Sequence record: KF147891.1
Source: Pseudomonas phage PaBG
Length of the DNA stretch: 64,000 nucleotides
Direction: 5' to 3' (one strand)
Within the stretch, counting starts at the first letter, position 1, and the number at the start of each line of letters is the position of its first letter. This document shows, one piece after another, positions 8,799 to 31,723 of the stretch. Made by a program: the position numbers and the translations under genes. The notes beneath the pieces are model-generated. The model searched no databases. It was not told where the DNA came from and saw only the letters and a program-made list of their open reading frames with translations.

Positions 8799-10961
8799 TC
8801 ACCTACGTGCGCTGCCCATTATACCGAGGGTTCCGATGCCACCAGAGCCTCCGCCGATACCTCCACCGCCGCCAGAATATAGGCGAGACGCCGCGATTGC
8901 TACTGGGCGTGTGTTTGCTACAGCCTCGGGGGCAGCCATTAGAATGGCTTGATATTCCTCTTCCTGCAATCCACGAACTGCGAGCGACATGGCTCGGTAG
9001 GTATCGTCAGTGTACCCATCAGCTTTGTCCACCATGCGTGTGGTGTCTTTGACTGTAGCCATCTGCATCAGCAGGTGAGACACCGGCTGCCCATCGAAGC
9101 AGAGCGGGTAGTGCTCATCGTCAAACTCAATGCACTCGCGGAACGTCTGGCGCTCGGCCACAGGTAGTACCAACTCACCCTGTTGGAGAAGCGTCTTGAC
9201 TGCGAACATGTCCTTGTACTTCAAGGAATACTGCTCGGCGATTTCAAGTTCTTCCCGAAGAATCTTGGCGTCCTGCAACAACTTCACAGAGTTCCAGCGG
9301 TCGGCCAGCAGGATTCGCACGTTGCGCGCTTCCATGATGGGCATGATCACTTCGGTGAAGATGCGACTGTGGTTCAGCGGTGCGCCGCGCTCTGGGATGA
9401 TTTCAAACACGCACTCGATCTGGACCTTGTTGTAGTCGTCTAGTCGAGCACAAACACCTGCGAAAGAGTTGTTCGTGAGTCCGGCGTCCAGAGCAAGGAG
9501 TGATGGGTACTTGCTCTTTTTGAGCTTCTTGATTTCGGCCCATGTAAAGGACTCGCCTCGTTTCTTAGAGTGCTTAACACGGCGAACGAGACGGATCGTA
9601 TTTTTCTTGTCACCTTGAGCATCTTCAATCTCGGTGTGATTCTGCAGGAACGTGTTGGCCGCCAGTGGAGGCACGGCACCGTAGTCACGTTCCGCGTTAA
9701 GTGGGTCTGTGCGATACGCCTCGGAAATGACCTTGGAGTTTCGCGGCAGGGTTGGGTTCACTTCCCAAGTGGGGCGCACAACACCGTACATGATGTCCGA
9801 GTGCTCTGCACGACGTACCAGGGTCATGATCATATCGTTCCGACTCGCAGGCGACGACACGTTCATGGCGTACCCAGGGTAGACATCATCGTACCCAAGG
9901 TTGATCAGACGTTCAGCGGCACCACGAACAGTCAGCAATGAACGGTCGAGAGCGCCCGCCACTTCGTGGGCGTTGTCCTTTACCTTCTTGGTGTCACGGT
10001 TCGCATCGAAGTAGCCGATTTCGTCGATTGCGGTGAAGTAACGAGTACGACCACGGAGAACCCGCTTGTCCGGGCCAGCCGGATAGGCCATCAGACCACG
10101 GCTCGGGTAAGCCACGTAGGTATCGTTGAACTTCAGGAGCTTCTCGCCGTACTTTTCCTCGTAATGACGCAGCATGCCGTGATACTCGCGGAACCATTGC
10201 GATTCCGTGAGCGTGGCATAGAAGTTCTGCCACAAGGTGTCTTTCGCCTGCGCGTAGGTCAGCGCAACGAAGGTACAGTGAAGCATGGTGCCCGTCTTCA
10301 ACCCGTAGAATGCGTTCGGGTTTTGCAACTTGAGGAGGCGATGCGTATGGTAGGGTGCAAAGTAACCGGCGATGGACAGAGACTTACCAGAACGCTGGCC
10401 GGCACAGACCGCCAACTCCTGGATAAACTTCATCTTGCCTTTCTTGATGAGCTTCGACCGACCCCATCCGCAATGCGGGCAGACGCCGTGCTCAAGCATG
10501 GCTACCTTGCGCTCCAGTTTACGGTAGGTATCATCCACCTTGTGATCGACGTACAGATACTCTACGTCGGAACACCGTGGGCAATACTCGTTGAACGTGA
10601 TGATGCCCCAGGTCAACTGCTCGATGTACGGCTTCTCACCGTTGGTCATCGCAAAGCGGTCGTTGGTACACCATTCGTACACGTTCTTCGCTACCGGAAT
10701 GCCGGAGTCGTCAATCTTCATATCACGAGGTACGAGGATTTTGGAATCCACGACCTCGCGAATGGTGCGGGCAATGTCGATTTCCTGCTCGTCAAAATTG
10801 CCGGCAGTGATCGCGTGCGCCGCCTTGTTCATGTTCTCTGGATCGAAGTCTTGCGCGGCTACTTCACCGCCACGCAGACCACTCAAGAACTTGAACGGGT
10901 CAGCTAGGGCAACATCGTACGGATTTGCTCCTTTTAGATTCTTGCCCTTTTTGATCTTCAT
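8799..10961 (-). CDS. terminase large subunit (ATPase + RNaseH-like nuclease), with N-terminal zinc-ribbon insert
   Basis: ATG at 10961 with a GAGGAAG Shine-Dalgarno (the track start is GTG). The protein has a Walker A (VCAGQRSGKS), a Walker B (YFTAIDEIGYFD), and a downstream nuclease domain (LALDAGLTNN..., ILLADRWNS). It also carries CPRC...CPHC cysteine pairs and a Gly-rich C-terminus (SGGGGGIGGGSGGIG). Confidence 0.75.
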   Translation of the reverse strand: MKIKKGKNLKGANPYDVALADPFKFLSGLRGGEVAAQDFDPENMNKAAHAITAGNFDEQEIDIARTIREVVDSKILVPRDMKIDDSGIPVAKNVYEWCTNDRFAMTNGEKPYIEQLTWGIITFNEYCPRCSDVEYLYVDHKVDDTYRKLERKVAMLEHGVCPHCGWGRSKLIKKGKMKFIQELAVCAGQRSGKSLSIAGYFAPYHTHRLLKLQNPNAFYGLKTGTMLHCTFVALTYAQAKDTLWQNFYATLTESQWFREYHGMLRHYEEKYGEKLLKFNDTYVAYPSRGLMAYPAGPDKRVLRGRTRYFTAIDEIGYFDANRDTKKVKDNAHEVAGALDRSLLTVRGAAERLINLGYDDVYPGYAMNVSSPASRNDMIMTLVRRAEHSDIMYGVVRPTWEVNPTLPRNSKVISEAYRTDPLNAERDYGAVPPLAANTFLQNHTEIEDAQGDKKNTIRLVRRVKHSKKRGESFTWAEIKKLKKSKYPSLLALDAGLTNNSFAGVCARLDDYNKVQIECVFEIIPERGAPLNHSRIFTEVIMPIMEARNVRILLADRWNSVKLLQDAKILREELEIAEQYSLKYKDMFAVKTLLQQGELVLPVAERQTFRECIEFDDEHYPLCFDGQPVSHLLMQMATVKDTTRMVDKADGYTDDTYRAMSLAVRGLQEEEYQAILMAAPEAVANTRPVAIAASRLYSGGGGGIGGGSGGIGTLGIMGSARR

Positions 10962-10963
10962 GG

Positions 10964-11746
10964 TCACTTCCTCGATGCACGAACACCCACTGTGTTCTGC
11001 GGCATGTGCTCCATGTCAGGATCAACTCCTGACTTGGTAACAGTTGCCGCATAGTGTTTGGTCATTGCAGCGATGGCGTCTGGGATGCGCTTGCGGTTCA
11101 GAGCGAGAATCACCTCGTCGGCCGTCTTGATTGACAGGCGCATCAGCAGGGTATTCTTCATCTTCTCCGGGAGCGACATCTGGTTGACTATGGAGGTCAC
11201 TATGTTGAGGCGCGAGATTGGCACCAAAGCGTCAGGGATCGCTTCGTCCAACTCGATTTCCATGTCCAGACCATCACGCAATGCTGCTTCTACGAAATTA
11301 GAAGCATCGTGGTGTGCGAACAGAAGGGATGCCGACTCTAGCAGAGTGTTGCGCAGCACTTCCTCTTTGGCCTGTGTGCCCTCACGCACTTCGGCCAATA
11401 TGTGGTCTGGAACTTCGATTTCGTTCTCACCTTTGACCGGATACTCGGTTGGGCGATAGTTGATACCGTCGTGCATCTTGTTGTGTTGGTGCCCATCATC
11501 ATCTGGGAACTCAACTTCGATTTCCATTACCTCTGGGAAATCGTCATCGTCGTCTTGCGGAGGCACTGTGACGTATTCTGGCTCTGGAGCGACAGTCGGT
11601 TTTGGCTTAGAAACGACTGTGCCGAGAGTAGGCAGTTTCTTGGCCTTTTCTCGGCAGACAGTTGTTGGGATGGTAAGCTCAGGGTTATAACGAACCCCGT
11701 GGAAAGCCAAACTGGGGACATTGTCCCCAGTGTGGTTTTCGAGCAT
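10964..11746 (-). CDS. hypothetical protein (candidate terminase small subunit by position)
   Basis: The true start is probably the internal ATG (MLENHTGDNVP) just past the stop of the helicase gene. The track N-terminus is the K/R-rich alternate frame of the helicase tail. The protein has an acidic central region and a helical C-terminus. Confidence 0.35.
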   Translation of the reverse strand: MLENHTGDNVPSLAFHGVRYNPELTIPTTVCREKAKKLPTLGTVVSKPKPTVAPEPEYVTVPPQDDDDDFPEVMEIEVEFPDDDGHQHNKMHDGINYRPTEYPVKGENEIEVPDHILAEVREGTQAKEEVLRNTLLESASLLFAHHDASNFVEAALRDGLDMEIELDEAIPDALVPISRLNIVTSIVNQMSLPEKMKNTLLMRLSIKTADEVILALNRKRIPDAIAAMTKHYAATVTKSGVDPDMEHMPQNTVGVRASRK

Positions 11747-11762: not shown

Positions 11763-13229
11763 CTAAGCGAGAGCGTAGTCTCCTGCGACTTCTTCCTCTT
11801 CGTCTCCGCTTCGTTTCTTTTTCTTGGATTTCCGAGGCTCATCGTCAGACTCGCTTCGTTTTCCTTTCTTGCCTTTCTTGGACTTGTCGCCTTTCCGTTT
11901 CTTGGAAGGCGCATCTTCTTCGTCATCCTCTGATGAGTAGTCAACCTGCGCATCGGGCATGTTCTCAGCGGTCATGATGTCGTACCGCTCAGCCAGCTCG
12001 AAGTTAAACACCTCACCGTCACGGTCTTTCTCAACCCGAATCGGCAAGATGCGCAGTTCACGTTGCTCTTGCTTGGTGTAGTTCCACTGCCACATGGTGT
12101 CGGCGTGTTCTTTGATACCCTTCGAGTAGCGCAGCTTATCTGTGGTATCGTCCAACTGAGCAAGGATAACCACAAGGCACTTGCTGCCTTCACGACTGAA
12201 TCGCTTGGACACGGCCGCAACTTCGGAGAGCTTGAACCACTGAGACTCGTGGTCCATGCCAGCGAGAAGGCCGATGTAGTCGATCATCACGATCTGGTAG
12301 CTGAACGGCTTGATCATGCGGTACACGTCGTCAATCGACATGGCTCGCGTTGGGCTGATCGTGGTGTAGACGATGCCGTGCTTCTGCCCGTGCTCACTGA
12401 ACAGACGGAAGGCTTCCTTGATCTTGTGCTTGTCGCCGGAGGTGAGCTTGTTCTCCTTAAACTTGTTGAACGGAATCTTCGTCAGGTGCGACGCAAGCCT
12501 TCGTGTCTCTTGTTCCTCGTCCATTTCCAAACTGATCCGACACACGGACTTGTTGGACTTGCGGTAGAGGTAAACACTCAGGTTCATCGCAACGGTCGAT
12601 TTACCACCGGACGTAGTTGCCGAGATAATGAACACGCCATGTTCTGGCAGGCCGCCGTTTCGCTTGTCGTACTCAGCATAGCCAGTCTTGATTCGCGGCT
12701 CGACCGTTCGGTTGATGATGTTGTCCACGATTTGCGCGGACGAGTCATTCGTACCGAAGTTGAGGAAGAACTGGTCATCGGCAAGGCTGGCGTTGGCGCG
12801 GCTCACAGCTTCCGTTACGTCGGAGAGCAGAGAATCAACGTCGATGTCTGGCTTGTCGAGAGCCGCGAAGCTGTCTTGGGCAATCGCGTAAATCGCACGA
12901 ATCTTGCGGTACCGCTCAAGTACATCCAGCAGGTTGCCTATCTGCTTTTTGTTCTTGCACGGCTTGGCCTTTTTAATCTGGGACTTCAATGCGTCCCGCA
13001 GGTCTTCATCGATTACAGGATCGGCAGCCAGGCTGTTGAAGTCAACGATTTCAAATCGCTTCTTGGCCAGGGTGTCGATCCGCTTGAATGCTTCGAGCGT
13101 AGGAGCATTGTGGAAATGCTCCTTACTCAGCTTACCGAGAAGGGTGCTGCGGACGCCAGCAGGGATGGACTCGTCGGTCAGTGTCTTGATGCACCGAACT
13201 TCGGAGTCCTGATCATATAGCAGCGCCAT
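11763..13229 (-). CDS. replicative DNA helicase (DnaB / T4 gp41 family) with K/E-rich C-terminal tail
   Basis: The RecA-like C-terminal domain has a Walker A (ISATTSGGKSTVAMNL) and a Walker B (IVMIDYIGLL); the N-terminal domain is helical. The tail reads SKKRKGDKSKKGKKGKRSESDDEPRKSKKKKRSGDEEEE. Confidence 0.7.
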   Translation of the reverse strand: MALLYDQDSEVRCIKTLTDESIPAGVRSTLLGKLSKEHFHNAPTLEAFKRIDTLAKKRFEIVDFNSLAADPVIDEDLRDALKSQIKKAKPCKNKKQIGNLLDVLERYRKIRAIYAIAQDSFAALDKPDIDVDSLLSDVTEAVSRANASLADDQFFLNFGTNDSSAQIVDNIINRTVEPRIKTGYAEYDKRNGGLPEHGVFIISATTSGGKSTVAMNLSVYLYRKSNKSVCRISLEMDEEQETRRLASHLTKIPFNKFKENKLTSGDKHKIKEAFRLFSEHGQKHGIVYTTISPTRAMSIDDVYRMIKPFSYQIVMIDYIGLLAGMDHESQWFKLSEVAAVSKRFSREGSKCLVVILAQLDDTTDKLRYSKGIKEHADTMWQWNYTKQEQRELRILPIRVEKDRDGEVFNFELAERYDIMTAENMPDAQVDYSSEDDEEDAPSKKRKGDKSKKGKKGKRSESDDEPRKSKKKKRSGDEEEEVAGDYALA

Positions 13230-17329: not shown

Positions 17330-17359
17330 ATTGTAGCACGTCTACAATAGCAGAGTCAA
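17330..17359 (-). promoter_or_regulatory. sigma-70-type promoter (TTGACT-N18-TGcTACAAT), minus strand
   Basis: Read by eye on the reverse complement: -35 TTGACT at 17359..17354, an extended -10 TGcTACAAT at 17338..17330. It sits directly downstream of the hairpin AGCTGGTCAaaaattTGACCAGCT that follows the recombinase gene. Confidence 0.45.
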
Positions 17360-17388
17360 GCTGGTCAAAAATTGACCAGCTAGCCAAC

Positions 17389-18894
17389 TTACTCGTCGTC
17401 CGCTTCTTCGCTGATGTCATCGGCCTGACGGCCTTTGGTGTTCTCGGCCTTGATCGCCAACTTCAGGAGCTTGTAGCCTTCGCCGGAGCGAACTTGCTTA
17501 CGGCACCATTCGTACAGGCGGAACGGCTTGACCTTGAACTTGGTGCAGCCCTTCTTGATCAGATCGGGCGAACCATCGATCAGTGCCTTGAACTCGATCC
17601 ACGACACGGTCTTGCCTTCGAGCGGACCGGTGAGGAACTTGAGCTTCTTGCGATTGCCGCCGAGCTGCCCAGTGTTCTTGAGGTACTGATAGGCGTCCCA
17701 GACTCGGCAGAAGCCTTTCGCGTTACCATCGGCATCGCTCACGCAGATGCGCAGCGAAATCTCTGCGGCTTGCGGACCGCCGAGCTTGTTCTTGTGCACC
17801 TTGCATTTCAGGTAACGGTACTTGTCAACGCCTTCACCGGTGATGGTGTCTTCTTCCTCGAACTGGCCCTTGGCGTGGGGAACGCTGACCGAGGTCATCT
17901 TGAGGCGGCAGTCAGAGTAGAAACGCAGCGCCTTACCGCCAGGCTCTTGTTCGGTCGGGCCGTACATTGCCATGGGGATGTCACGCAACTGGTTGATGCC
18001 CAGTACGATGATCCGCTTGGAACGCATTGCACCCTTCACGCGCGGCAGGTTTGCAGCGTGCATACGAGCCTGGGCGCCGAGCGACTTGTCACCCTCGTCC
18101 TTATCGTCGGTCTGCTTCGGCACCATTGCCGGGTACGAGTCGACCAGCACGACGGCTTGGGGACTACCGTCGGGCATTTCGATTCGGAACTTGTTGGTCT
18201 TGCGGAAGTATTCCTTGTCGTACACACCGGCGAGTGCTTTCTGGTTCGCTTTGGTGTTCTCGTAGACGCAGTAGAACTTCCCGTTCTCCTGGATTTTGTC
18301 CGGGAGAATCTTTTCGAGCTTGGCGAGGTAGTTGTAGAAGTCCTCGCCGACCGACGGAGCGTAGTAACGAACGCGCGGTTGGATGACCCAGCCTTTGTCG
18401 TCCTTCACGCCGAACACGTTGTCAACGCTCAGACGCTTGCCGTGGTTCATGTAGCGGAAGATGTTCTCGGCGTAGTCGGCCTGGAACGAACCTTCGAAGT
18501 CGTGCAGCGACGCCTTGCCGTGGAACGTGCTGTCGGTTGCGATTGCACCCATGCACGTCGTGGCGAGCGTAGACTTACACGACTGCTCGCCGCCGAAGAA
18601 CGTGTACCAACCACCAGGCAGCAGGCCGCCAGCGAGTGCAACGTCGATGGAAAGCAGGCCAGTGGATAGGCGATCTTCCGATTCGCTAACCGCCATGGAG
18701 GTAAGGCCGAACTTCTTTTCCATGGAATCGATTTCGGCGTCGAGGTGAGCATACGGATCGAACGCAGCTACTGCCGTGTCGCCCTTCTTGCCTTTCTTCG
18801 CGGTACTCACGTCGATTTCGACATCACCGCCCTTGCCTTTGCCGCGCTTGCTCTTTGCGGGAGCGTCGGCTTCGGCCTTTTTCTTCTTTGCCAT
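17389..18894 (-). CDS. RecA/UvsX-family recombinase with Lys-rich N-terminal extension
   Basis: ATG at 18894 with a GGAGAT Shine-Dalgarno (the track start is GTG). LSTGLLSIDVALAGGLLPGGWYTFFGGEQSCKSTLA aligns with the RecA block [36 protein letters not shown]. The N-terminus reads MAKKKKAEADAPAKSKRGKGKGG. Confidence 0.75.
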   Translation of the reverse strand: MAKKKKAEADAPAKSKRGKGKGGDVEIDVSTAKKGKKGDTAVAAFDPYAHLDAEIDSMEKKFGLTSMAVSESEDRLSTGLLSIDVALAGGLLPGGWYTFFGGEQSCKSTLATTCMGAIATDSTFHGKASLHDFEGSFQADYAENIFRYMNHGKRLSVDNVFGVKDDKGWVIQPRVRYYAPSVGEDFYNYLAKLEKILPDKIQENGKFYCVYENTKANQKALAGVYDKEYFRKTNKFRIEMPDGSPQAVVLVDSYPAMVPKQTDDKDEGDKSLGAQARMHAANLPRVKGAMRSKRIIVLGINQLRDIPMAMYGPTEQEPGGKALRFYSDCRLKMTSVSVPHAKGQFEEEDTITGEGVDKYRYLKCKVHKNKLGGPQAAEISLRICVSDADGNAKGFCRVWDAYQYLKNTGQLGGNRKKLKFLTGPLEGKTVSWIEFKALIDGSPDLIKKGCTKFKVKPFRLYEWCRKQVRSGEGYKLLKLAIKAENTKGRQADDISEEADDE

Positions 18895-18946
18895 GTACGA
18901 ATCTCCGAAACGGGAACGGGTGGCCACATCGGCCACCCGCAGTCAC

Positions 18947-20158
18947 TTACTCGTCGTCATCATCCCAGGCAGATTTCTTGCCCTTGCCGGATTTCTTCGA
19001 CTTCTTGTCCTTGGTGGATTTGTCGGACTTGGACTTCTTGCCCTTGTCAGACTTCTTGGACTTCTTCGGAGCTTCGTCCTCGTCGTCATCAGACGATTTC
19101 TTGGACTTCTTGGCCTTCTTCTTGGGCTTGTCGTCCTCGTCATCATCGTCGTCCGACTTGGACTTGGACTTCTTGCCCTTCTTCTTGGGCTTGTCATCCT
19201 CGTCCTCGTCGTCATCATCGTCGCTGAACGCCGGCTTGGACTTTTTCTTCTTCTTGGGCTTGTCGTCTTCGTCGTCATCGTCATCGGAGAACGCTTTGGA
19301 CTTCTTCTTGCCCTTCTTGCCTTTCTTCGGCTCGTCATCGTCACCGAGACTGTAGCCGTCACCGTCGTCGTCATCGTCCGGAGTATCACCGCCGACGATT
19401 TCCATGCGCTTGAAGTCTTCCAGCGCTTGCTTGGCGTCCATGCGGCCGGTGACATCGAGCAGGGTTTCGTCGAGCTTCCAGACCAGATATGCCTTCTCGT
19501 CGTCGGTGAGCGGAGTGCGCTCGTCCTTGTCGATGGAATACTTGTCGGTACCCGGAGCCTTCGGCTTGAACTTGACACGAATGTCGCAGCCGTACTTCTC
19601 GTGCGTCACGTCGAACGCTTTCTTGGCGCCGGACTTCTTGTCCTTGGCGGTGTTGCCTTCGCCGATCTCTTGGATACGGCTCGCCATGGTGGAAGTGAAG
19701 CGGCAGACGCGCACCGGAGTCCAGGACTTCGAGCGGATGTCCTTGAAGCCGGACTTCTTCTCTTCCTTGGTGTGCTCTGCCTTCTTGCGCGGCTCATCTT
19801 CCTGCAGCTCGCGGATGATGGCGTTGCCCAGGTAGAAGAACTCGTAGCGAGCGCTGCCGTCCTTGCCGTGAGTCAGGTCGCAGTACGGGCACTTGACTTC
19901 TTTGCCCTTCGCGTCTTTGCGCGGCTCGCCTTCGTGGTTCGGGTCGAACGCGATGCAGTAGCGCGGGATGGTGATTTCTTTCTTTTCCTTACCAGCAAGG
20001 ATGCTGATCCAGTGACGCTTCACTGGCAGAATCTTGCCGGGCAGGCAACGAATCTGCGACCACTCGTCAGCCGGAAACTTGTGCAGTTCGATCACTTCAT
20101 CCAGCTTGACCGAATCCTTGTTACCGGTGCGTGGTTGGAGAGTTCCAAATCCACTCAT
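18947..20158 (-). CDS. gp32-like ssDNA-binding protein with long block-polyampholyte C-terminal tail
   Basis: The core reads IRCLPGK...RYCIAFDPNHEGEPRKDAKGKEVKCPYCDL, a C/H/C/C zinc motif with spacing like T4 gp32 (IRFLPSK...). The C-terminal roughly 170 aa alternate D5-8 blocks with K-rich blocks, for example DDDDDEDDKPKKKKKSKPAFSDDDDDEDEDDKPKKKGKK. Confidence 0.65.
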   Translation of the reverse strand: MSGFGTLQPRTGNKDSVKLDEVIELHKFPADEWSQIRCLPGKILPVKRHWISILAGKEKKEITIPRYCIAFDPNHEGEPRKDAKGKEVKCPYCDLTHGKDGSARYEFFYLGNAIIRELQEDEPRKKAEHTKEEKKSGFKDIRSKSWTPVRVCRFTSTMASRIQEIGEGNTAKDKKSGAKKAFDVTHEKYGCDIRVKFKPKAPGTDKYSIDKDERTPLTDDEKAYLVWKLDETLLDVTGRMDAKQALEDFKRMEIVGGDTPDDDDDGDGYSLGDDDEPKKGKKGKKKSKAFSDDDDDEDDKPKKKKKSKPAFSDDDDDEDEDDKPKKKGKKSKSKSDDDDDEDDKPKKKAKKSKKSSDDDEDEAPKKSKKSDKGKKSKSDKSTKDKKSKKSGKGKKSAWDDDDE

Positions 20159-20188
20159 GTTAGATAACTCCTGGGTTGAACACGTTAG

Positions 20189-21205
20189 TTATTGACAGTT
20201 TTCCTCTAGGGTGTGCTGGCGCATCAGTGCCAACTCGTCAGGAGTGAAGAACTCACCGATGTCAAGTGTGAGCCTAGCGACGCCTTCCCTATCTACTTCC
20301 TTGGCAAGCAACTGGACGAGCTGTTGCGACTCAAGCCGCTCGAAGTCCTCATCCATGACGTGACCGTCCGACAACGTAGAGTACAGCGTCCTCTCGTCAT
20401 CCTCGCCGGGCTTTTTCAGAGCGTCCAGAGAGACACTGAAATTAACCTCGGAGCTTTCGCCGACGGCTAGCTTACGCTTCTGCGATTGCGGCACGGTGTA
20501 CGCCACGCCGTATTCGTGATCTGCGCTGCAAGTTTGAGCATTGAGCACCCACCAGTTGATGTACGTGGTGAGCGCACCCTTGGACGAGTCGTACTTATCC
20601 AAGGCGACGACCATTGCTTTCAGGATCGATTGCTTTAGGTCGTGGAAGTCCAACTGTTGACCTTGGTTAGAGGTCATGTGGGACTTCGCTTGCGTGCTTG
20701 AGTGCCGCAAGTAGTTGTCTAGCGTCGCTGAACGGAACGCATAGAACTTTTCCAGGTAAGCCGATGCTTGAGTGACGATGCGGTACATGTCCGCACGCCG
20801 CGTAATGCCAGCACCGACATAAGCCATGTCGTCAACGGCCAGCTTGTTTTCATGGCTGGGGTCGACCATGAATCTTTGGTACGCCTGCAGAAAGCCTTGG
20901 TTGTCATCCAGAAAGCGCTTGATGAAACAATGGATGAACGAGCGTTCGATGCGGCAATCGCGGAACGTCCGAAACTTGAACGCACCGTCCGTGTGGGTGA
21001 GCACGGCGCACAGGTTCTCAACGAGTTCTTCGCGCGGGACCGACGACAGCTTGCGCTTGCGGTTCGTTGCGACGATTGTGAGGACGTGGGACACCTGTGA
21101 GTCAAACACGGAAGAGTACAGCATCAAAGGCTCAAGCGCCTTGTAGAGGAGCATGTCCATGACCTTCTGGATTTGTTCCCCAGTAAGGTTCTTGTCCATG
21201 CTCAT
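20189..21205 (-). CDS. phage sigma factor (sigma-70 family region 2-like)
   Basis: GALTTYINWWVLNAQ matches the sigma-70 region 2.2/2.3 signature (TYAxWWIRQ). 338 aa. Confidence 0.5.
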   Translation of the reverse strand: MSMDKNLTGEQIQKVMDMLLYKALEPLMLYSSVFDSQVSHVLTIVATNRKRKLSSVPREELVENLCAVLTHTDGAFKFRTFRDCRIERSFIHCFIKRFLDDNQGFLQAYQRFMVDPSHENKLAVDDMAYVGAGITRRADMYRIVTQASAYLEKFYAFRSATLDNYLRHSSTQAKSHMTSNQGQQLDFHDLKQSILKAMVVALDKYDSSKGALTTYINWWVLNAQTCSADHEYGVAYTVPQSQKRKLAVGESSEVNFSVSLDALKKPGEDDERTLYSTLSDGHVMDEDFERLESQQLVQLLAKEVDREGVARLTLDIGEFFTPDELALMRQHTLEENCQ

Positions 21206-21702
21206 TATCCAAGCAACTCCCGCAGTTCTTTCAACGACAGGTCGGCGTACAAGGTATCGTACAGCTTGATGTTCTGGTCAAGCGGAAGCGTTGGTTCGAT
21301 TCGTGGATCGTTACGTCGCTTCGGTGCGCCCTTTGGGGTTGGCAGGACAAACCCACCGCCGTTTCTAGTTTCAATCATCCTCGCGTAGTGATCGAAGTAG
21401 AGCATGACCCGATCGTGGCGTTCGCGCAACTGCACTTCTTCCTTGATCTTCTCGGCCAGCTTCTCTCGAAACTCCTCGACTTGTGCGCCCTTCTCCTGGT
21501 ACTGCCCGAGGAGCTTGATGTTGTTTGCGTTCACCTGTTCGAGGTTCGCGGCGACGCGCTGATTCTCGGCGATCAACGCTCGCGTCTGCTCGTTGGCTTC
21601 GGCCAGAGACGTAGCAATCCGCGCTTGACCCTCCTGCGCAATTTGCAGTTGAATCTGGAGCGCGGCAATCTTGATGTGCGGATTTTCTTGTGTGTCGCTC
21701 AT
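21205..21702 (-). CDS. hypothetical coiled-coil protein
   Basis: Start at MSDTQENPH, which is non-overlapping with the upstream gene. Q/E/A-rich heptads. Confidence 0.5.
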   Translation of the reverse strand: MSDTQENPHIKIAALQIQLQIAQEGQARIATSLAEANEQTRALIAENQRVAANLEQVNANNIKLLGQYQEKGAQVEEFREKLAEKIKEEVQLRERHDRVMLYFDHYARMIETRNGGGFVLPTPKGAPKRRNDPRIEPTLPLDQNIKLYDTLYADLSLKELRELLG

Positions 21703-21718
21703 GTTCGTGCATCCGTAG

Positions 21719-22375
21719 TTACAGGTTCTGCTCCAGAGCAATCTTGGCAAGCGCGATGATGTGCTTGCAGCAGCCTGGTGCCAGACGAGGGTTGGTGAAG
21801 TTGGGTGCTTCGCCGTTGGAGTAGATCAAGCGACTAGCACCGACCGATGCGTTGGCGTACTCGAAGACGTAGACGAAGTTTTCGCAGGTGCACTGTACCA
21901 GCACCTTGTTGTGTCGATTGACTGGTAGCTTGTCGTCGTCACCCATGCCGATGATGTACGTCTCGTGGACTCGGCGCACGCGATTCTGCCGCCAGACATC
22001 GTAGGTGACCATGTGGCCCATGATCACAGGACGATGCGTCTTGGTAAACTTGCGCTCAATCTTCTTGGCTTCAACGTCAACCGCATTGTTGATGAACAGA
22101 CGCGGAGTGGCACGAATCAGTTGACGCAGCGTCATGCCTTTCTTCGACGCAGCAGTCTCAGGCAGTTGTCGGACAGGCATTGCCTCCAAGCGCTTGAGCC
22201 TGTAAGGCATGCCGGACGCCAGACGTTCTTTCCCGGGCCGCTTCGATTTGAACACGACTGCCTTCTTCGACTTCATGCGCTCTTGCGTCTTCTCCGCGGT
22301 GCGCTTGGCATCGGACTTACGCCCTGAGGTGTTCTTGCGACTTTTGGCAAGCGGCTTGTACGGCTTCTTCGCCAT
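21719..22375 (-). CDS. SWIM-type zinc-finger protein with basic N-terminus
   Basis: A GGAGGTAGC Shine-Dalgarno. The C-terminus has CTCENF...GCCKHIIA, matching the SWIM pattern C-x-C-x(n)-C-x-H. Confidence 0.5.
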   Translation of the reverse strand: MAKKPYKPLAKSRKNTSGRKSDAKRTAEKTQERMKSKKAVVFKSKRPGKERLASGMPYRLKRLEAMPVRQLPETAASKKGMTLRQLIRATPRLFINNAVDVEAKKIERKFTKTHRPVIMGHMVTYDVWRQNRVRRVHETYIIGMGDDDKLPVNRHNKVLVQCTCENFVYVFEYANASVGASRLIYSNGEAPNFTNPRLAPGCCKHIIALAKIALEQNL

Positions 22376-22376
22376 G

Positions 22377-24995: not shown

Positions 24996-25604
24996 TCAAT
25001 CCAGGTCGTCGAAGTCCTCGAAGTCGTCATCCGACTTCGACTTCTTGTCCGCCTTCTTGGACTTCTTGCCTTCGGCTTTTTCAGCCTTGGCCTTCTTGGC
25101 TTTCTTGTCCTTCTTGGACTCGGCCTTGGCCGACTTGTCGGACTTCTTGCCTTCGGCTTTCTCGGCCTTGGCTTTCTTGTCCTTCTTCACCGGCTTGTCG
25201 GCCTTCTCGGCTTTCTTGGACTTCTTGCTGTCGCCCTTGTCAGCCTTGGCTTTCTTGCCTTCGGCCTTCTCGGCCTTGGCCTTCTTGTCGGACTTCTTGC
25301 CTTCGCCCTTGGCCGGCTTGTCAGCCTTCTCGGCTTTCTTGGACTTCTTGCCCTCGGCTTTCTCGGCCTTGGCTTTCTTGTCCTTCTTGGCCGGCTTGTC
25401 AGCCTTGGCCTTCGCCGGAGCGGCGGCGCCGTCAGCAGTCAGCTTCTCGACGGCCTTGATCTGGGCTTGGGTGCCTTTCAGGCTTTCCTGCGCGGTCTTG
25501 AGCGCTTTCTCCAGGGCAGCAACGGTGCCCTTGGCAGCACGTTCTTCCTTACGCAGGCGGGAAACTTCCTGCTTCTTGTTGATGAGTACGTCGTTCTTGG
25601 CCAT
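24996..25604 (-). CDS. histone H1-like lysine-rich protein (coiled-coil N-terminus, KAEKAEGKKSKK repeats, acidic C-terminus)
   Basis: Start at MAKNDVLINKK. Roughly 150 aa carry repeated AKAEKAEGKKSKK units, and the protein ends DDDFEDFDDLD. Confidence 0.6.
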   Translation of the reverse strand: MAKNDVLINKKQEVSRLRKEERAAKGTVAALEKALKTAQESLKGTQAQIKAVEKLTADGAAAPAKAKADKPAKKDKKAKAEKAEGKKSKKAEKADKPAKGEGKKSDKKAKAEKAEGKKAKADKGDSKKSKKAEKADKPVKKDKKAKAEKAEGKKSDKSAKAESKKDKKAKKAKAEKAEGKKSKKADKKSKSDDDFEDFDDLD

Positions 25605-25793
25605 GTTCTTCGATTCCAGATTTGGAGGAGTAAAGGGAGCTGCTTCTATGAGCACCCGACTTGTTGAGCAACTATGAATTAGCGTGCTCAGATTTTACGA
25701 CCGAGACGCAAACTTTGTTTACGCCTCGGGTGACGCTTAGGAAGGTGCGGCCGCTCGCATGTTGCTAGGCCGCGCGCCTACCGGGCCGAGGTA

Positions 25794-26348: not shown

Positions 26349-26933
26349 TTAGTCGTCCAGATCGTCGTCGTCTTCGTCGGCCTTTTTCTTCTTGCCCTTC
26401 TTGGACTTCTTGCCTTCGGCTTTCTCGGCCTTGGCTTTCTTGTCCTTCTTGGACTTCTTGCCTTCACCGCCGGCAGCGGCTTCGTCTTCGGCGCGAACTT
26501 CGATGCGAACATCGTCGCGTTGATACAGCTTCACAGTTTCACCGGAAGCGGTCTGGATGGTCATGATGCCACCCTTGTCTTCGACCAGGCGACCGACAAC
26601 TTCGCGGATGGCGACTTCGCGGAACACGGTCACAGCGGAGACTTCGCCGACGGCGCCGAACACTTCGACGACATCGCTACGGGAGAAGCGGCTGACCACA
26701 GTCTTCTGCGAAGCGCTGGTACGCTTGTGGCGCAGCATGACCGCGTCGGTGCCGTCTTGAACCAGGAAGCCACCGATTTCGACAGCTTGGCGAGCGAACA
26801 CGGTGAACGTGAACATCGCGGACTTGGCCTTGAAGCTGGTCTTGGCGCTGATGTTCTTCAGGCGCTTGGCGATCTTGTCGGTACGGGACAGGCGATTCGC
26901 GGTATTGCGCTTTTTCGTTTTGTCTTTTGCCAT
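26349..26933 (-). CDS. DNA-binding-like protein with tandem small beta-barrels and H1-like KAEKAEGKKSKK tail
   Basis: Start at MAKDKTKKRN with an AAGGTGAG Shine-Dalgarno. The C-terminus KKSKKDKKAKAEKAEGKKSKKGKKKKADEDDDDLDD is paralogous to the tail of 24996..25604. Confidence 0.6.
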   Translation of the reverse strand: MAKDKTKKRNTANRLSRTDKIAKRLKNISAKTSFKAKSAMFTFTVFARQAVEIGGFLVQDGTDAVMLRHKRTSASQKTVVSRFSRSDVVEVFGAVGEVSAVTVFREVAIREVVGRLVEDKGGIMTIQTASGETVKLYQRDDVRIEVRAEDEAAAGGEGKKSKKDKKAKAEKAEGKKSKKGKKKKADEDDDDLDD

Positions 26934-26941
26934 GGTGTGTA

Positions 26942-28012
26942 TCACTCACCTTCTTTTTCGAGAGAGAAAGCGACGAGGAAATCGCCGCCGTTAAACAGGG
27001 CATCAGCGTAGTCTTCACGCTCGAAGCCCGGGGCGCCTACGAACTCGCCACCTTCAACCGCGTTGCGGTAGCTGAGGATTTCGGCTTCCGGATCGTTGCT
27101 ACGAATCCAGTTGAACGCATCCAGCACCGATTGCTTCATCAGGTCCTGGCTGTAGAAGCCGACGTACACTGCGGACGGCATGCCCGCCTTGATGCCAGCC
27201 TGTTCGAGGTACTTGAAGTGGGTCTTCAAGGTCTTCTCGAACTTGTCCGACGCTTCACGCAGCAGCAGCGGGATGCGCAGGTGTACGATGAACTTCACAG
27301 TAACCGAAACGGTCTTGGTCTGCGCAGTCGGCTCGCCGGTCTGGTTGACCGACAGCAGCGGACGAACGCGGATGTACTCGTCCGCCGGCAGCATCACGGC
27401 ACCGTCTTCGCCAGCCAGTTCGATGTAGTGCTGACCGTCGGCGCTCGGGAAGTTCGCGTACAGGGTGCTCTGCGCAGCCTTCAGGTGTTCTTCGATCAGG
27501 TTCTCGACGACCAGGGCACCGGTGTCAGCAGTAACGACCAGACGTTCTTCGTTGGCCATCAGCTTGCTCAGCACGCCGACGAACTCGCGCAGCGGTTCAC
27601 GCAGGACGCCGATACGGCCGGAGCGTTCGTTGAGCTTGGAGAGCGACTGGATCAGGTTGAGCTTCTGGTCGTTGAACTCGAAGTTCGCGGTATCGATCAG
27701 CGCGTCCTGCACTTCGTCGTGGAACAGGTTGACCACGAAGTTCAGCTCGGGGTTGACGACCAGGCGCACGATGCCTTCGACACCTGCGGTTTCCTGCAGA
27801 ATCTGCGAGAAGCTGCGCGGCTGGTATTCGTCTTCGACGTCCACACCGTCGGCACCATCGACATCGGCCATTTCGACTTCTTCGATGTTGCGGGTCGGCT
27901 CGACCGCGATGCCGGCCGGGGCGCCACGTTCTTCTGCGGACGGTGCGGCTTCGCTGGCGAGTTGCTGGCTCTGACGCTCGGCATCGCCGATCAGGTTTTC
28001 TTGGTTACTCAT
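26942..28012 (-). CDS. hypothetical acidic protein
   Basis: 356 aa; ATGA coupling and an AAAGGAGAC Shine-Dalgarno. Confidence 0.55.
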   Translation of the reverse strand: MSNQENLIGDAERQSQQLASEAAPSAEERGAPAGIAVEPTRNIEEVEMADVDGADGVDVEDEYQPRSFSQILQETAGVEGIVRLVVNPELNFVVNLFHDEVQDALIDTANFEFNDQKLNLIQSLSKLNERSGRIGVLREPLREFVGVLSKLMANEERLVVTADTGALVVENLIEEHLKAAQSTLYANFPSADGQHYIELAGEDGAVMLPADEYIRVRPLLSVNQTGEPTAQTKTVSVTVKFIVHLRIPLLLREASDKFEKTLKTHFKYLEQAGIKAGMPSAVYVGFYSQDLMKQSVLDAFNWIRSNDPEAEILSYRNAVEGGEFVGAPGFEREDYADALFNGGDFLVAFSLEKEGE

Positions 28013-30327: not shown

Positions 30328-31650
30328 TTACTCGGCCTCGACTTCTTCCATGCGGGCGACGTCGGCGATGGACTTGCTGCGGAACTTCAGGCTGTCCAGG
30401 TTGAGCAGCTTGACAGTTTCGTCGGCTTCGTCGTAACCAACCAGCAGGAACTCATGCTTATCTTCCTTGCCCTTGAGTACGGTCTGGCCGGGCACCATGT
30501 CGTCACCGAACTTGTCCTCGATTTCATCGCTGGCGAGATACGCCTCGACAAAACCGCGAACTTTGCCTTCGCTCAGGTTCGGAGCACGCTCGCGGATGGC
30601 GTTGACCATGTCTTCGACGCTGACGGCGTCTTCGGACTCATCTTCTTCCTCCTCGTCGTCCTCGTCCTCGTCTTCGGACTCATCGTCCTCGTCGTCTTCC
30701 AGCTCACCATCGTCATCGCCGACTTCATCTTCGTCCTCGTCGCCAGCCTCCAGTTCGACGCCAGCCTCATCTGCGGCTTCGCGGATGGCGTCATCGTCGT
30801 TGTCGTCGTCTTCGCGGATGAGGGCGATAACCGCCTCGGCGTCCATCGACTTCTTGGTGGTCAGGCCGAGCTTGCGCGCGATCTTCTTGAGGTCGGCCAC
30901 GTCGAGGTCGCCGAGAAGTTCGTCTTCCAGGCCTTCATCGTCCTCGTCGTCATCGTCCAGACCTTCATCGTCCAGGCTGTCGTCGTCCTCGTCGTCATCA
31001 GGTGCGACGTCGGTGGCTTCGCGGTGTTCGCGGATGTACGCCTTGATTTCCTTGTCGGACTTGCTGCCCGGCATCAGGGTGATGGTGACACGGAGCGCGT
31101 TCTCGTTGAACTGCGCACCTACAGCGACCGGTACCACGTCGTACACGCCGCTGGCCGACAGTGCATTGCCAAGCAGTGCAAACGCATCGTTGCTGATCGC
31201 TTCGGCGTTACGCTGATCGAACGCTTCGACCAGTTTCTTCTTGGCAGCCTTCGGCTTGGACTTCGGCGCTTCGGGCTCGTCTTTCTGCTTGGAGGTACGC
31301 GCACGCTTGCCAGCAGGTGCACCTTCTGCCTCGGCTGCTTCGCGCTTCAAGCGACGGCGACGCTGGCGTGCGGTTTCACCGGCGGGTGCATCGTCATCGT
31401 CTTTCACCTTACGGTTGCGGGCGCGAGCCGGCTTGGTCGGCTCTTCCTTGGCGGCTTTCTTGCCTTTCTTCGGAGTGTCGAAGAAGAAGCCGGGGCCGCG
31501 CTTGTAGATGCCGTCGATGTGGACGCGAGTGCCGTCCTCGGTGATAGCTTCGCCAGTCTTCACCACGATCTTCTCGACGCGGTGACGCTCACCGTCGATG
31601 GTGATGCGCTTGCCTTGCATGCCTTTCAGGTCGTCTTTAGTGATAGCCAT
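30328..31650 (-). CDS. charged low-complexity nucleic-acid-binding-like protein (KOW-like N-terminus, K/R block, SAP/Rho-N-like motif, long acidic region)
   Basis: Start at MAITKDDLKGMQGK with a TGAGGAC Shine-Dalgarno. It contains DLKKIARKLGLTTKK, which is SAP/Rho-N-like, and more than 150 residues of D/E-rich sequence. Confidence 0.5.
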   Translation of the reverse strand: MAITKDDLKGMQGKRITIDGERHRVEKIVVKTGEAITEDGTRVHIDGIYKRGPGFFFDTPKKGKKAAKEEPTKPARARNRKVKDDDDAPAGETARQRRRRLKREAAEAEGAPAGKRARTSKQKDEPEAPKSKPKAAKKKLVEAFDQRNAEAISNDAFALLGNALSASGVYDVVPVAVGAQFNENALRVTITLMPGSKSDKEIKAYIREHREATDVAPDDDEDDDSLDDEGLDDDDEDDEGLEDELLGDLDVADLKKIARKLGLTTKKSMDAEAVIALIREDDDNDDDAIREAADEAGVELEAGDEDEDEVGDDDGELEDDEDDESEDEDEDDEEEEDESEDAVSVEDMVNAIRERAPNLSEGKVRGFVEAYLASDEIEDKFGDDMVPGQTVLKGKEDKHEFLLVGYDEADETVKLLNLDSLKFRSKSIADVARMEEVEAE

Positions 31651-31723
31651 GTTCTGAGTCCTCATTAACCTAAACTAAGTTTGTAACCGTAATGCTGGAT
31701 GCAGCGTGTCGAACACGCAACCA

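What the first reader, a model, noticed from the sequence alone, without database searches (positions are those of the whole stretch)
18947..19500. ssDNA-binding protein carries a roughly 170-residue block-polyampholyte tail of alternating poly-Asp and poly-Lys blocks
The gp32-like SSB ends with at least five cycles of an acidic block (5-8 D/E) followed by a basic block (8-12 K-rich), for example DDDDDEDDKPKKKKKSKPAFSDDDDDEDEDDKPKKKGKKSKSKSDDDDDEDDKPKKKAKK. It terminates in DDDDE. Canonical SSB and gp32 tails are purely acidic. A strictly alternating charge-block architecture is the textbook sequence grammar for complex coacervation, and it could drive condensate or replication-factory formation, or self-regulate ssDNA binding.
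Basis: seen in the sequence. Interest (0 to 1): 0.7.

Follow-up and report, generated by a model that had tools for sequence, protein, structure and literature searches.

The report
Charge-striped disordered tail on phage SSB
A jumbo-phage single-stranded-DNA-binding protein with the T4 gp32 fold carries a 146-residue disordered tail of alternating poly-Asp and poly-Lys blocks. The same pattern recurs in hundreds of related phage SSBs and appears undescribed, so it is a good candidate for testing how phage replication proteins cluster by charge.

Summary
Window 18947..20158 (- strand) encodes a 403-aa protein.

**Core and tail**
- Residues 258-403 form a predicted-disordered tail of 48 K, 43 D and 8 E. 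Its net charge is about zero.
- The tail has five acidic-to-basic cycles plus an acidic tip, SAWDDDDE.
- Charge segregation is far beyond chance: kappa 0.51 against 0.11±0.03 for shuffles, and no shuffle out of 5000 reached it.
- The tail is 146 residues, not about 170.

**Not an artefact**
- An identical relative occurs in three independent assemblies.
- Relatives with 97-98% identical cores differ in the tail only by in-frame indels and mostly synonymous changes.

**A family hallmark**
- 243 of 250 homologues (core identity about 30-100%) have tails of at least 30 aa. The set includes phages Lu11, HRDY3, Yoloswag, NCTB, phiRSL1, BcepSauron and Motura.
- Median family values are 146 aa, 67% charged residues and kappa 0.54.
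- The repeat is directional: Pro, then a Lys block, then a hydrophobic residue, then an acidic block.
- Canonical gp32 tails are short and net acidic.
- The phage's DnaB-like helicase and RecA-like recombinase carry similar charged extensions.

**Function**
Function is inferred only. The tail is most likely a multivalent electrostatic hub or condensate-type scaffold. I found no published description.

The parts
18947..20158 (-). SSB gene, 403 aa plus stop codon (gp32-fold core plus charge-block tail)
   Evidence: ORF. PHROG 15004 at E=2e-154 over residues 3-403. 125 homologues at E<=1e-5 and 439 50%-identity clusters at E<=1e-3.
20168..20172 (-). Ribosome-binding site AGGAG, 9 nt upstream of the ATG at 20158
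   Evidence: Read directly from the sequence.
19388..20158 (-). Folded core, residues 1-257: gp32-type OB-fold ssDNA-binding domain
18950..19387 (-). Disordered block-polyampholyte tail, residues 258-403 (146 aa): five acidic-to-basic cycles plus an acidic tip
   Evidence: Composition 48 K, 43 D, 8 E, 19 S. Charged fraction 0.68, net charge per residue -0.02, kappa 0.51, z=11.7 against shuffles. pLDDT 42-53 and no secondary structure in the full-length model.
19050..19294 (.). 63-nt (21-codon) tandem repeat array that encodes the central D-block/K-block cycles
   Evidence: Tandem Repeats Finder: period 63, 2.3-3.0 copies, 77-81% matches. Charge autocorrelation peaks at lags 21 and 42.
18950..18973 (-). 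C-terminal tip SAWDDDDE (aromatic residue plus acidic run)
   Evidence: The tip xWDDDDE is conserved in the closest ~27 homologues. Across 250 family members the tip is aromatic+acidic in 88..PF in 36, acidic in 31, basic in 59 and other in 36.
18918..18938 (-). GC-rich hairpin GGGTGGCC-GATGT-GGCCACCC between the SSB stop codon and the recombinase start; no T-run follows
   Evidence: Read from the sequence. Not called as a terminator by the consensus scan. Function unknown.
17389..18894 (-). RecA/UvsX-like recombinase immediately downstream. It has a Lys-rich N-terminal extension (MAKKKKAEADAPAKSKRGKGKGG..KKGKKGD) and an acidic C-terminus (..DDISEEADDE). It is a candidate electrostatic partner.
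   Evidence: Pfam RecA 1.5e-24, PHROG 97 UvsX-like 4.8e-63. Likely start is the ATG at 18894 with GGAG upstream. The same basic N-terminus and acidic tip occur in HRDY3, Lu11 and NCTB.
11763..13229 (-). DnaB-like replicative helicase with its own C-terminal charge-block extension (..SSEDDEEDAPSKKRKGDKSKKGKKGKRSESDDEPRKSKKKKRSGDEEEEVAGDYAL.). It is a candidate partner.
   Evidence: Pfam DnaB_C 8.8e-24, PHROG 19. Found by the tail scan. Comparable K-rich/acidic C-termini occur in the Lu11, HRDY3, NCTB and JA29 helicases.

Best explanation
The gene encodes the phage's replication and recombination SSB, a distant structural relative of T4 gp32. In this lineage the short, net-acidic C-terminal 'A domain' of gp32 has been replaced by a long, disordered, near-neutral repeat. 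Each repeat unit reads Pro, then a Lys-rich block, then a hydrophobic or aromatic residue, then a poly-Asp/Glu block. The tail ends in an aromatic+acidic tip.

I propose that the tail is a multivalent electrostatic hub with three activities:
- Acidic blocks of one SSB bind Lys blocks of neighbouring SSBs. This gives tail-mediated self-association and cooperativity on ssDNA and, at high local concentration, condensate-like clustering.
- Lys blocks add non-specific contacts with nucleic acid.
- The hydrophobic+acidic modules and the tip recruit partners that carry complementary Lys-rich or acidic extensions. Here those partners are the RecA/UvsX-like recombinase and the DnaB-like helicase.

Together these would concentrate the replication-recombination machinery around ssDNA.

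**Shown:** the gp32 fold, predicted disorder, extreme charge segregation, family-wide conservation of the pattern, in-frame evolution under purifying selection, and similar extensions on helicase and recombinase.

**Inferred:** every binding and assembly step.
For: **Fold and disorder**
- gp32 fold of the core.
- Tail predicted disordered.

**Charge pattern**
- Kappa is 0.51, z=11.7, with none of 5000 shuffles reaching it.

**Conserved as a pattern, not as a sequence**
- 243 of 250 homologues carry tails of at least 30 aa. Medians are 146 aa, charged fraction 0.67, net charge per residue -0.05 and kappa 0.54.
- 236 of 243 tails have z>=4. The median tail has 10 alternating blocks of about 9-10 residues.
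- Different lineages use different, independently duplicated units and differ in K versus R and D versus E usage.

**Selection**
- Relatives with 97-98% identical cores differ in the tail only by gap runs that are multiples of 3.
- Window against L019 shows 26 synonymous and 11 non-synonymous codon differences.
- The identical protein P0004 is found in three independent assemblies.

**Directional module and tips**
- Pro occurs at 68% of acidic-to-basic junctions. A hydrophobic residue occurs at 62% of basic-to-acidic junctions, although hydrophobic residues are about 7% of tail composition.
- All four aromatic residues of the window's tail sit just before acidic runs.
- Tip types resemble the SSB C-terminal tip.

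**Candidate partners**
- Helicase and recombinase of this phage and of Lu11, HRDY3, NCTB and JA29 carry Lys-rich/acidic extensions.
- The sigma factor-SSB-RecA gene order is conserved.

**Precedent**
- Alternating charge blocks drive phase separation of the Caulobacter RNase E C-terminal domain (10.1101/272286) and of Ki-67 (PMC9106583).
- E. coli SSB condenses through its disordered linker and tip (PMC7584906).
- T4 gp32 and UvsX form droplets in vitro with PEG (PMC11951158).
Against: - There is no experimental or localisation evidence of any kind.
- gp32-type SSBs are monomers (established knowledge), so all valence must come from the tail.
- Blocks of 8-10 charges may interact only weakly at cytoplasmic ionic strength. 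RNase E droplets dissolve above about 200 mM NaCl (10.1101/272286), and the Ki-67 study found that average block size converges on about 30-40 residues (PMC9106583).
- Tail length is loosely constrained: 117-158 aa among relatives with 93-100% identical cores.
- Seven of 250 members have almost no tail and seven of 243 have unsegregated tails, so the tail is not needed for basic SSB function.
- 59 of 250 members end in a basic tip rather than an acidic one.
- A high-kappa neutral chain could mainly collapse on itself rather than bridge molecules.
Confidence: 0.45

Rival explanations
1. The tail is an intramolecular regulator only. It acts as an enlarged version of the gp32 acidic 'flap'. Acidic blocks with their preceding aromatic residue mimic ssDNA and occupy the cationic cleft of the same molecule. 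Lys blocks neutralise them or bind DNA. The tail therefore tunes on-rates, helix destabilisation and cooperativity without higher-order assembly or condensates.
For: - The core has the gp32 fold, a net charge of +7 and a tail of -3.
- In T4 gp32 the acidic C-domain binds internally at or near the DNA-binding site (PMC5892887 abstract).
- In E. coli SSB the C-terminal peptide competes with ssDNA for the OB fold (PMC7584906).
- Aromatic residues sit immediately before the acidic runs.
- By polyampholyte theory (established knowledge), high-kappa neutral chains favour self-collapse.
Against: - One acidic segment would be enough for a flap. This model does not explain five or more repeats, an equal mass of Lys blocks, or matching extensions on helicase and recombinase.
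- AlphaFold does not dock any tail segment on the core, although pLDDT of 42-53 makes that weak evidence.
Confidence: 0.25
2. The tail is a spacer with a functional tip. The striped region is only a flexible, highly soluble linker, like the poorly conserved linker of bacterial SSB. It exposes the C-terminal aromatic/acidic tip, which is the only specific partner-binding element. The stripes arise because slippage expands a neutral K/D unit.
For: - Tip motifs are conserved within sub-clades: xWDDDDE, DDDIPF, DDDF.
- Tail length and unit number vary rapidly.
- The 63-nt tandem array indicates slippage or unequal recombination.
- The length and composition of the bacterial SSB linker are not conserved either (PMC7584906).
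Against: - A mere spacer need not keep charge segregation in 236 of 243 tails across about 30-100% core identity and through independent repeat origins.
- It need not keep junction-specific Pro and hydrophobic residues.
- It need not keep a synonymous-over-non-synonymous excess.
- 59 of 250 members have a basic tip and 36 have no recognisable tip.
Confidence: 0.15
3. The tail is directed at the host. It mimics host factors, using an SSB-C-terminal-tip-like end and polyanion/polycation stretches. It would sequester host SSB-interacting proteins, nucleoid proteins or nucleases and defence proteins, rather than organising phage replication.
For: - 36 of 250 relatives end in ..PF, including DDDIPF in phage Motura. 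This is identical in type to the E. coli SSB tip that binds many host proteins (PMC7145534 abstract).
- Acidic runs can act as DNA mimics (established knowledge of phage anti-restriction proteins).
Against: - The window protein ends in WDDDDE, not ..IPF.
- The gene sits in a conserved sigma factor-SSB-RecA replication/recombination module.
- Phage-encoded partners carry complementary tails.
- There is no match to defence-related families, but PADLOC was not searched.
Confidence: 0.1
4. The tail is an artefact or neutral junk: a mis-assembled or frame-shifted simple repeat, or a non-functional low-complexity expansion.
For: The region is a low-complexity tandem repeat, which is a typical site of assembly errors.
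Against: - The same architecture occurs in finished genomes of isolated phages (Lu11, phiRSL1, Yoloswag, Motura, BcepSauron and others).
- An identical protein occurs in three independent assemblies.
- All indels against close relatives are multiples of 3, and synonymous changes are in excess.
- The conserved tip follows the repeat in frame.
Confidence: 0.03

Closest known systems
Bacteriophage T4 / RB69 gp32 (gene 32 ssDNA-binding protein)
   Same: - The core ends at about residue 255, as in T4 (253).
- A disordered C-terminal extension carries acidic segments.
- The gene sits in a replication/recombination module next to a RecA/UvsX-type recombinase.
- Iyer et al. list the T4 gp32-orthologous SSB as a feature of the jumbo-phage group whose subgroup 2.2 includes Lu11, NCTB and phiRSL1 (PMC7824862).
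   Different: - Only 13-16% identity, and no Pfam gp32 hit.
- No basic N-terminal cooperativity motif.
- Zn-ligand residues are not conserved in the family.
- The tail is 146 aa, near neutral and 33% basic, with kappa 0.51. The T4 tail is 48 aa, 6% basic, net -0.25 per residue, with kappa 0.25.
Bacterial SSB tail: intrinsically disordered linker plus acidic C-terminal tip (E. coli SSB)
   Same: - The layout is an OB-fold domain, then a long disordered linker of poorly conserved sequence, then an acidic/hydrophobic tip.
- Some family members end in DDDIPF-type tips.
- E. coli SSB forms condensates through its linker and tip, regulated by ssDNA (PMC7584906).
   Different: - The core fold and oligomeric state differ (gp32-type monomer against homotetramer).
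- The E. coli linker is Gly/Gln/Pro-rich and almost uncharged, not a polyampholyte.
- The window protein's tip is WDDDDE, not DDDIPF.
Charge-block disordered regions that drive phase separation: Caulobacter RNase E C-terminal domain, Ddx4, Ki-67 repeats, NPM1/Nopp140/Treacle
   Same: - Alternating positive and negative blocks lie in a disordered region, and the pattern is conserved without sequence conservation.
- RNase E blocks are 10-30 residues with ±2 to ±8 net charge per 10 residues (10.1101/272286). Here blocks are about 8-13 residues.
- PDB sequence hits of the family profile were nucleolar K/D/E tails: RPA43, Nop58 and an RNase E fragment.
- One phage homologue is even annotated 'Nop14-like'.
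   Different: - There is no homology; this is analogy only.
- The blocks here are shorter and denser (almost pure D or K) and are built from a regular 21-residue tandem unit.
- The blocks are attached to an ssDNA-binding domain of a virus.
- No phosphorylation control is known, and phase separation is untested.
T7 gp2.5 acidic C-terminal tail with terminal aromatic residue
   Same: An acidic run plus an aromatic residue acts as a candidate ssDNA-mimicking and partner-binding element (established knowledge, recalled and not tested here). Relatives end in DDDF or DWDE.
   Different: gp2.5 has a different core, a single short acidic tail and no Lys blocks or repeats.

Membership tests
PHROG 15004 (jumbo-phage 'single strand DNA binding protein') | Significant full-length match to the family profile | tested here: met
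   E=2e-154, residues 3-403 against profile positions 7-421 of 421. The profile itself includes the tail.
T4 gp32-type SSB | gp32 core fold (OB fold with gp32-specific elaborations) | tested here: met
   [not shown]
T4 gp32-type SSB | Sequence-profile membership (Pfam gp32 family or PDB gp32 by sequence) | tested here: not met
   No Pfam family at E<=0.1. The family profile against PDB sequences found no gp32, only low-complexity tail hits.
T4 gp32-type SSB | Zn-binding subdomain (His plus three Cys ligands) | tested here: inconclusive
   The window protein has C68, H75, C90 and C93 in the corresponding region. Only C90 is conserved in at least 90% of the family. Lu11 has CPYM and phiRSL1 has no Cys there. 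Ligand geometry in the model was not measured.
T4 gp32-type SSB | Basic N-terminal domain with a (Lys/Arg)3(Ser/Thr)2 motif for cooperative binding | tested here: not met
   The N-terminus is MSGFGTLQPRTGNKDSVKLDE, with three scattered basic residues and no such motif, and pLDDT of 57-67. An exact [KR]3[ST]2 motif is also absent from the tail (read).
T4 gp32-type SSB | Short, net-acidic C-terminal domain | tested here: not met
   The tail is 146 aa, 33% basic and 35% acidic, with net charge per residue -0.02. The T4, K571, S-SCSM2R and Cba120 tails are 6-9% basic and net acidic.
T4 gp32-type SSB | Binds ssDNA cooperatively and interacts with replisome and recombination proteins | not testable with these tools
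   Only context is available: conserved sigma factor-SSB-RecA order.
Bacterial SSB (OB tetramer + disordered linker + SSB C-terminal tip) | C-terminal D-D-D-I-P-F type tip | tested here: not met
   The window protein ends in SAWDDDDE. 36 of 250 relatives do end in ..PF, for example Motura with DDDIPF.
Bacterial SSB (OB tetramer + disordered linker + SSB C-terminal tip) | Single small OB-fold core homologous to bacterial SSB | tested here: not met
   [not shown]
Block-polyampholyte disordered regions (RNase E C-terminal domain / Ddx4 / Ki-67 type); a functional class, not a homologous family | Intrinsic disorder | tested here: met
   pLDDT is 42-53 with no secondary structure for residues 258-403. 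Composition is D, K, S, G, E and P.
Block-polyampholyte disordered regions (RNase E C-terminal domain / Ddx4 / Ki-67 type); a functional class, not a homologous family | High charged fraction, near-zero net charge, and opposite charges segregated into alternating blocks well beyond random | tested here: met
   Charged fraction 0.68, net charge per residue -0.02, kappa 0.51 against 0.114±0.034. Family medians are 0.67, -0.05 and 0.54.
Block-polyampholyte disordered regions (RNase E C-terminal domain / Ddx4 / Ki-67 type); a functional class, not a homologous family | Salt-sensitive self-association or phase separation that depends on the block pattern | not testable with these tools
   Requires purified protein or a validated coarse-grained simulation.

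The most novel reading that the evidence does not exclude
Non-nucleus-forming jumbo phages of the Lu11/phiRSL1/Yoloswag lineage use a shared 'charge-stripe code'. Striped or Lys-rich/acidic disordered extensions on the SSB, the replicative helicase, the recombinase and several unknown proteins co-assemble into a membrane-less replication-recombination compartment around ssDNA. This would be an electrostatic alternative to the protein-shelled phage nucleus. Repeat number would tune its material properties.
Probability: 0.2. Interest if true: 0.85.

Novelty: new variant of a known kind. Interest (0 to 1): 0.62.

Why it matters
SSBs act as organising hubs of DNA metabolism. How their disordered tails work, and whether SSB condensates matter in vivo, is actively debated for E. 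coli SSB and T4 gp32.

This family offers a natural, extreme and evolutionarily replicated case:
- At least about 360 clusters at 50% identity carry a gp32-fold core (E<=1e-10).
- In 243 of the 250 members examined, that core is fused to a near-ideal block polyampholyte.
- Block number, block length and tip type vary between close relatives, which amounts to a ready-made mutational series.
- Several members belong to culturable phages: Lu11, phiRSL1, Yoloswag, Motura and BcepSauron.

The idea that charge patterning organises phage replication is therefore directly testable.

The work also flags a practical annotation problem. These tails attract spurious labels such as 'Nop14-like' and are masked in BLAST, so the feature has gone unnoticed.

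Tried and rejected
- **Sequence-level membership in gp32.** There was no Pfam hit. A family-profile search of PDB sequences returned only low-complexity matches to nucleolar proteins and an RNase E fragment. Membership therefore rests on fold only.
- **Near-identical phage genome.** Megablast of window 15000-24000 against 50,697 phage records found only a 52-nt, 92% match inside the Lu11 tail. I read this as codon-level convergence of D/K repeats, not homology. The window is a new phage with at most 50% SSB identity to HRDY3 and Lu11.
- **Artefact or frameshift.** Rejected.
- **The long + strand ORFs overlapping the gene** (18776..20167, 18745..19227, 18855..19355) and the - strand alternative frame (18943..19578). 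These are low-complexity mirror translations with no homologue support.
- **Charged single alpha-helix.** Rejected. The tail is D-rich with Pro, Gly and Ser, and AlphaFold predicts no helix.
- **gp32-style (K/R)3(S/T)2 motif moved into the tail.** There is no exact match.
- **Terminator after the gene.** The consensus scan found none on the - strand. There is only a GC hairpin without a T-run.
- **Sequence charge decoration as a metric.** It was only weakly discriminating (z=-2.3), because the blocks are short and periodic.
- **Literature.** Eight full-text searches found no description of this tail, nor did a term search of the 2026 jumbo-phage review or the Iyer et al. comparative paper. The library does not cover most subscription journals, so a prior description cannot be excluded.
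Full report
**1. What is there**

Window 18947..20158 on the - strand is a 403-codon ORF. It has an AGGAG ribosome-binding site 9 nt before its ATG and ends in TAA. It lies between a phage sigma-factor gene (20189..21205) and a RecA/UvsX-like recombinase gene (17389..18894). The window also encodes a large terminase, a portal protein and a DnaB-like helicase, so it comes from a large tailed phage.

The protein matches PHROG 15004 'single strand DNA binding protein' at E=2e-154 over its whole length. It has no Pfam hit. The closest isolated phages are Pseudomonas phages HRDY3 (49% identity) and Lu11 (46%), then Erwinia phage Yoloswag and phage NCTB. No near-identical phage genome exists in the phage collection.

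**2.

Residues 258-403 read:

DTPDDDDDGDGYSLGDDDE-PKKGKKGKKKSKAFS-DDDDDEDD-KPKKKKKSKPAFS-DDDDDEDEDD-KPKKKGKKSKSKS-DDDDDEDD-KPKKKAKKSKKSS-DDDEDE-APKKSKKSDKGKKSKSDKSTKDKKSKKSGKGKKSAW-DDDDE.

- That is five acidic-to-basic cycles plus an acidic tip.
- The tail is 146 residues (window 18950..19387), not about 170.
- Composition is 48 K, 43 D, 19 S and 8 E. The charged fraction is 0.68 and net charge per residue is -0.02.
- Kappa is 0.51 against 0.114±0.034 for 5000 shuffles of the same composition (maximum 0.288; z=11.7).
- Charge autocorrelation has a 21-residue period, which matches a 63-nt tandem array at the DNA level.
- Sequence charge decoration is only modestly extreme (z=-2.3), as expected for many short blocks.

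**3. The core is gp32-like by fold, not by sequence**

- An AlphaFold2 model of residues 1-257, built on 69 homologues, has mean pLDDT 90.4.
- The five best Foldseek hits in the PDB are all RB69 or T4 gp32 (E 8e-5 to 5e-3).
- Identity is 13-16%.
- Iyer et al. describe the T4 gp32-orthologous SSB as a feature of this jumbo-phage group, and they place Lu11, NCTB and phiRSL1 in its subgroup 2.2 (PMC7824862).
- The basic N-terminal motif of gp32 is absent. Candidate Zn ligands (C68, H75, C90, C93) are present here, but only C90 is conserved in the family.
- In a full-length model the tail has pLDDT 42-53 and no secondary structure.

**4. It is not an artefact**

- The protein of a close relative (P0004) is encoded identically in three independent metagenome assemblies with the same gene order.
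- I aligned the tail DNA of the window with two relatives whose cores are 97-98% identical. Every gap run is a multiple of three, and all three end in the same ...WDDDDE-TAA.
- Window against L019 shows 26 synonymous and 11 non-synonymous codon differences.
- Tail length nevertheless ranges from 117 to 158 residues among relatives with 93-100% identical cores. Units are gained and lost quickly but always in frame.

**5. The striped tail is a hallmark of the whole family**

- A word-indexed search found 125 clusters. An exhaustive phmmer search of 1.84 billion representatives with the core alone found 439 clusters at 50% identity with E<=1e-3, of which 360 have E<=1e-10.
- Of 250 retrieved members with a complete core (about 30-100% identity), 243 have a tail of at least 30 residues.
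- Family medians are tail length 146.5, charged fraction 0.67, net charge per residue -0.05 and kappa 0.54. In 236 of 243 tails, kappa exceeds shuffles by z>=4.
- The median tail has 10 alternating blocks. The median acidic block is 10 residues and the median basic block is 9. The period ranges from about 19 to 49 residues.
- Lineages use different, independently duplicated units. Examples are PPRSRKKPVAKKSSKW-DEDDDD... in P0033 and EAPPKRGAKPAAKSKKVV-DEDDDDFDD... in P0110. They also differ in K versus R and D versus E usage. The pattern is conserved rather than the sequence.
- Finished genomes of isolated phages show the same tail: Lu11, HRDY3, Yoloswag, NCTB, phiRSL1, BcepSauron, Motura, RHph_N46 and GR7B.
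- Canonical gp32 tails (T4, Vibrio K571, S-SCSM2R, Cba120) are 48-103 residues, 6-9% basic and net acidic, with kappa 0.19-0.30.

**6. The repeat is more than charge**

- Junctions are asymmetric. Of 552 non-redundant acidic-to-basic junctions, 68% contain Pro. Of 563 basic-to-acidic junctions, 62% contain a hydrophobic residue and 27% an aromatic one. Hydrophobic residues make up only about 7% of tail composition.
- In the window all four aromatic residues (Y, F, F, W) sit just upstream of an acidic run.
- C-terminal tips across the family are aromatic+acidic in 88..PF in 36 (including DDDIPF in Motura), purely acidic in 31, basic in 59 and other in 36.
- The unit therefore looks like Pro, a Lys block, a hydrophobic residue and an acidic block. 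The last half resembles the partner-binding tips of bacterial SSB and T7 gp2.5 (the latter recalled, not tested).

**7. The neighbours speak the same language**

- A scan of all ORFs in the window for mixed-charge segments found further cases.
- The DnaB-like helicase has a C-terminal extension with acidic, Lys-rich, acidic, Lys-rich and acidic segments.
- Two proteins of unknown function (24996..25655 and 26349..26945) have long K/A/E/D tails that end in DDDFEDFDDLD and DEDDDDLDD.
- Inspecting the neighbouring recombinase sequence showed a Lys-rich N-terminus and an acidic C-terminus.
- Comparable extensions occur on the helicases of Lu11, HRDY3, NCTB and JA29, and on the recombinases of HRDY3, Lu11 and NCTB.

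**8. How it most likely works (inference)**

The tail replaces the acidic A domain of gp32 with a multivalent polyampholyte. I favour a hub model at confidence 0.45:
- Acidic and Lys blocks of neighbouring SSB molecules pair.
- Lys blocks add nucleic-acid contacts.
- Hydrophobic+acidic modules and the tip recruit the recombinase and helicase through their own charged extensions.
- Together these produce cooperative, possibly condensate-like clustering of the replication-recombination machinery on ssDNA.

Precedents:
- Alternating charge blocks are necessary for assembly of Caulobacter RNase E bodies, whose droplets dissolve above about 200 mM NaCl (10.1101/272286).
- Charge blockiness governs Ki-67 phase separation (PMC9106583).
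- E. coli SSB condenses through its linker and tip and is dissolved by stoichiometric ssDNA (PMC7584906).
- T4 gp32 and UvsX form droplets in vitro, but only with PEG (PMC11951158).

Against the model:
- There are no experiments.
- The gp32 fold is monomeric.
- The blocks are short for cytoplasmic ionic strength.
- Repeat number is loosely constrained.
- A few family members lack the tail.

Rivals are an intramolecular flap or affinity tuner (0.25), a soluble spacer with only the tip functional (0.15), host-directed mimicry (0.10) and artefact or junk (0.03).

**9. Novelty**

The gene family is known and annotated as SSB, and its gp32 relationship has been noted. I found no description of the striped tail in eight full-text searches or in two jumbo-phage overviews. 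That library omits most subscription journals.

I rate it a new variant of a known kind: a gp32-type SSB with a conserved block-polyampholyte tail. Interest is moderately high because the feature is extreme, replicated across hundreds of lineages, naturally variable, and testable in culturable phages.

Noticed in passing
window 11763..13229 (-): The DnaB-like replicative helicase (Pfam DnaB_C 8.8e-24) ends in its own alternating acidic/Lys-rich extension (..SSEDDEEDAPSKKRKGDKSKKGKKGKRSESDDEPRKSKKKKRSGDEEEEVAGDYAL.). Similar charged C-termini occur in the Lu11, HRDY3, NCTB and JA29 helicases.
   Followed up: partly
window 17389..18936 (-); likely true start is the ATG at 18894: The RecA/UvsX-like recombinase has a disordered-looking Lys-rich N-terminal extension of about 40 residues and an acidic C-terminal tip (..DDISEEADDE). 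The same layout occurs in HRDY3, Lu11 and NCTB. The mechanical ORF start (GTG at 18936) is probably 14 codons too early.
   Followed up: partly
window 24996..25655 (-) and 26349..26945 (-): Two proteins of unknown function (phrog_36478 and phrog_22271) carry long K/A/E/D repeat tails. They share a near-identical KKAKAEKAEGKKSKK module and end in acidic/hydrophobic tips (SDDDFEDFDDLD and ADEDDDDLDD). They may be further members of the same charge-tail network.
   Followed up: no
window 18918..18938 (-): An 8-bp GC-rich hairpin (GGGTGGCC-GATGT-GGCCACCC) lies in the 52-nt gap between the SSB stop codon and the recombinase ATG. No T-run follows it. It could be an attenuator or an RNA-stabilising element.
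   Followed up: no
locus L007 2441..3724 (Rhizobium phage RHph_N46, MW980063.1): The SSB homologue is annotated 'Nop14-like family protein'. This is almost certainly a spurious label caused by the K/D/E low-complexity tail. The family profile likewise hits the nucleolar proteins RPA43 and Nop58 in the PDB sequence search.
   Followed up: partly
window 19236..19287 vs Lu11 NC_017972.1 131423..131474: A 52-nt stretch of the tail is 92% identical to the Lu11 SSB tail, although the cores are only 46% identical in protein. This looks like codon-level convergence of GAC/GAT and AAG repeats rather than shared ancestry of that segment.
   Followed up: no
locus L019 1..1429 (ENA ERZ27298644 contig k119_227114): In a close relative's contig, a 562-residue gene about 1.5 kb upstream of the SSB gene has a Pfam Intein_splicing hit. 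The corresponding window region was not examined.
   Followed up: no
window 30328..31665 (-), residues ~62-114: A 445-aa protein with no PHROG or Pfam hit has an internal mixed-charge segment (..PKKGKKAAKEEPTKPARARNRKVKDDDDAPAGETARQRRRRLKREAAEAE..).
   Followed up: no
window 6355..8232 (-) and 8799..10967 (-): A portal protein (phrog_16240, E=3e-290) and a large terminase (phrog_17415, E=0) lie in the same window as the replication genes. This confirms the window is a phage genome segment of the Lu11/HRDY3-like jumbo group.
   Followed up: no
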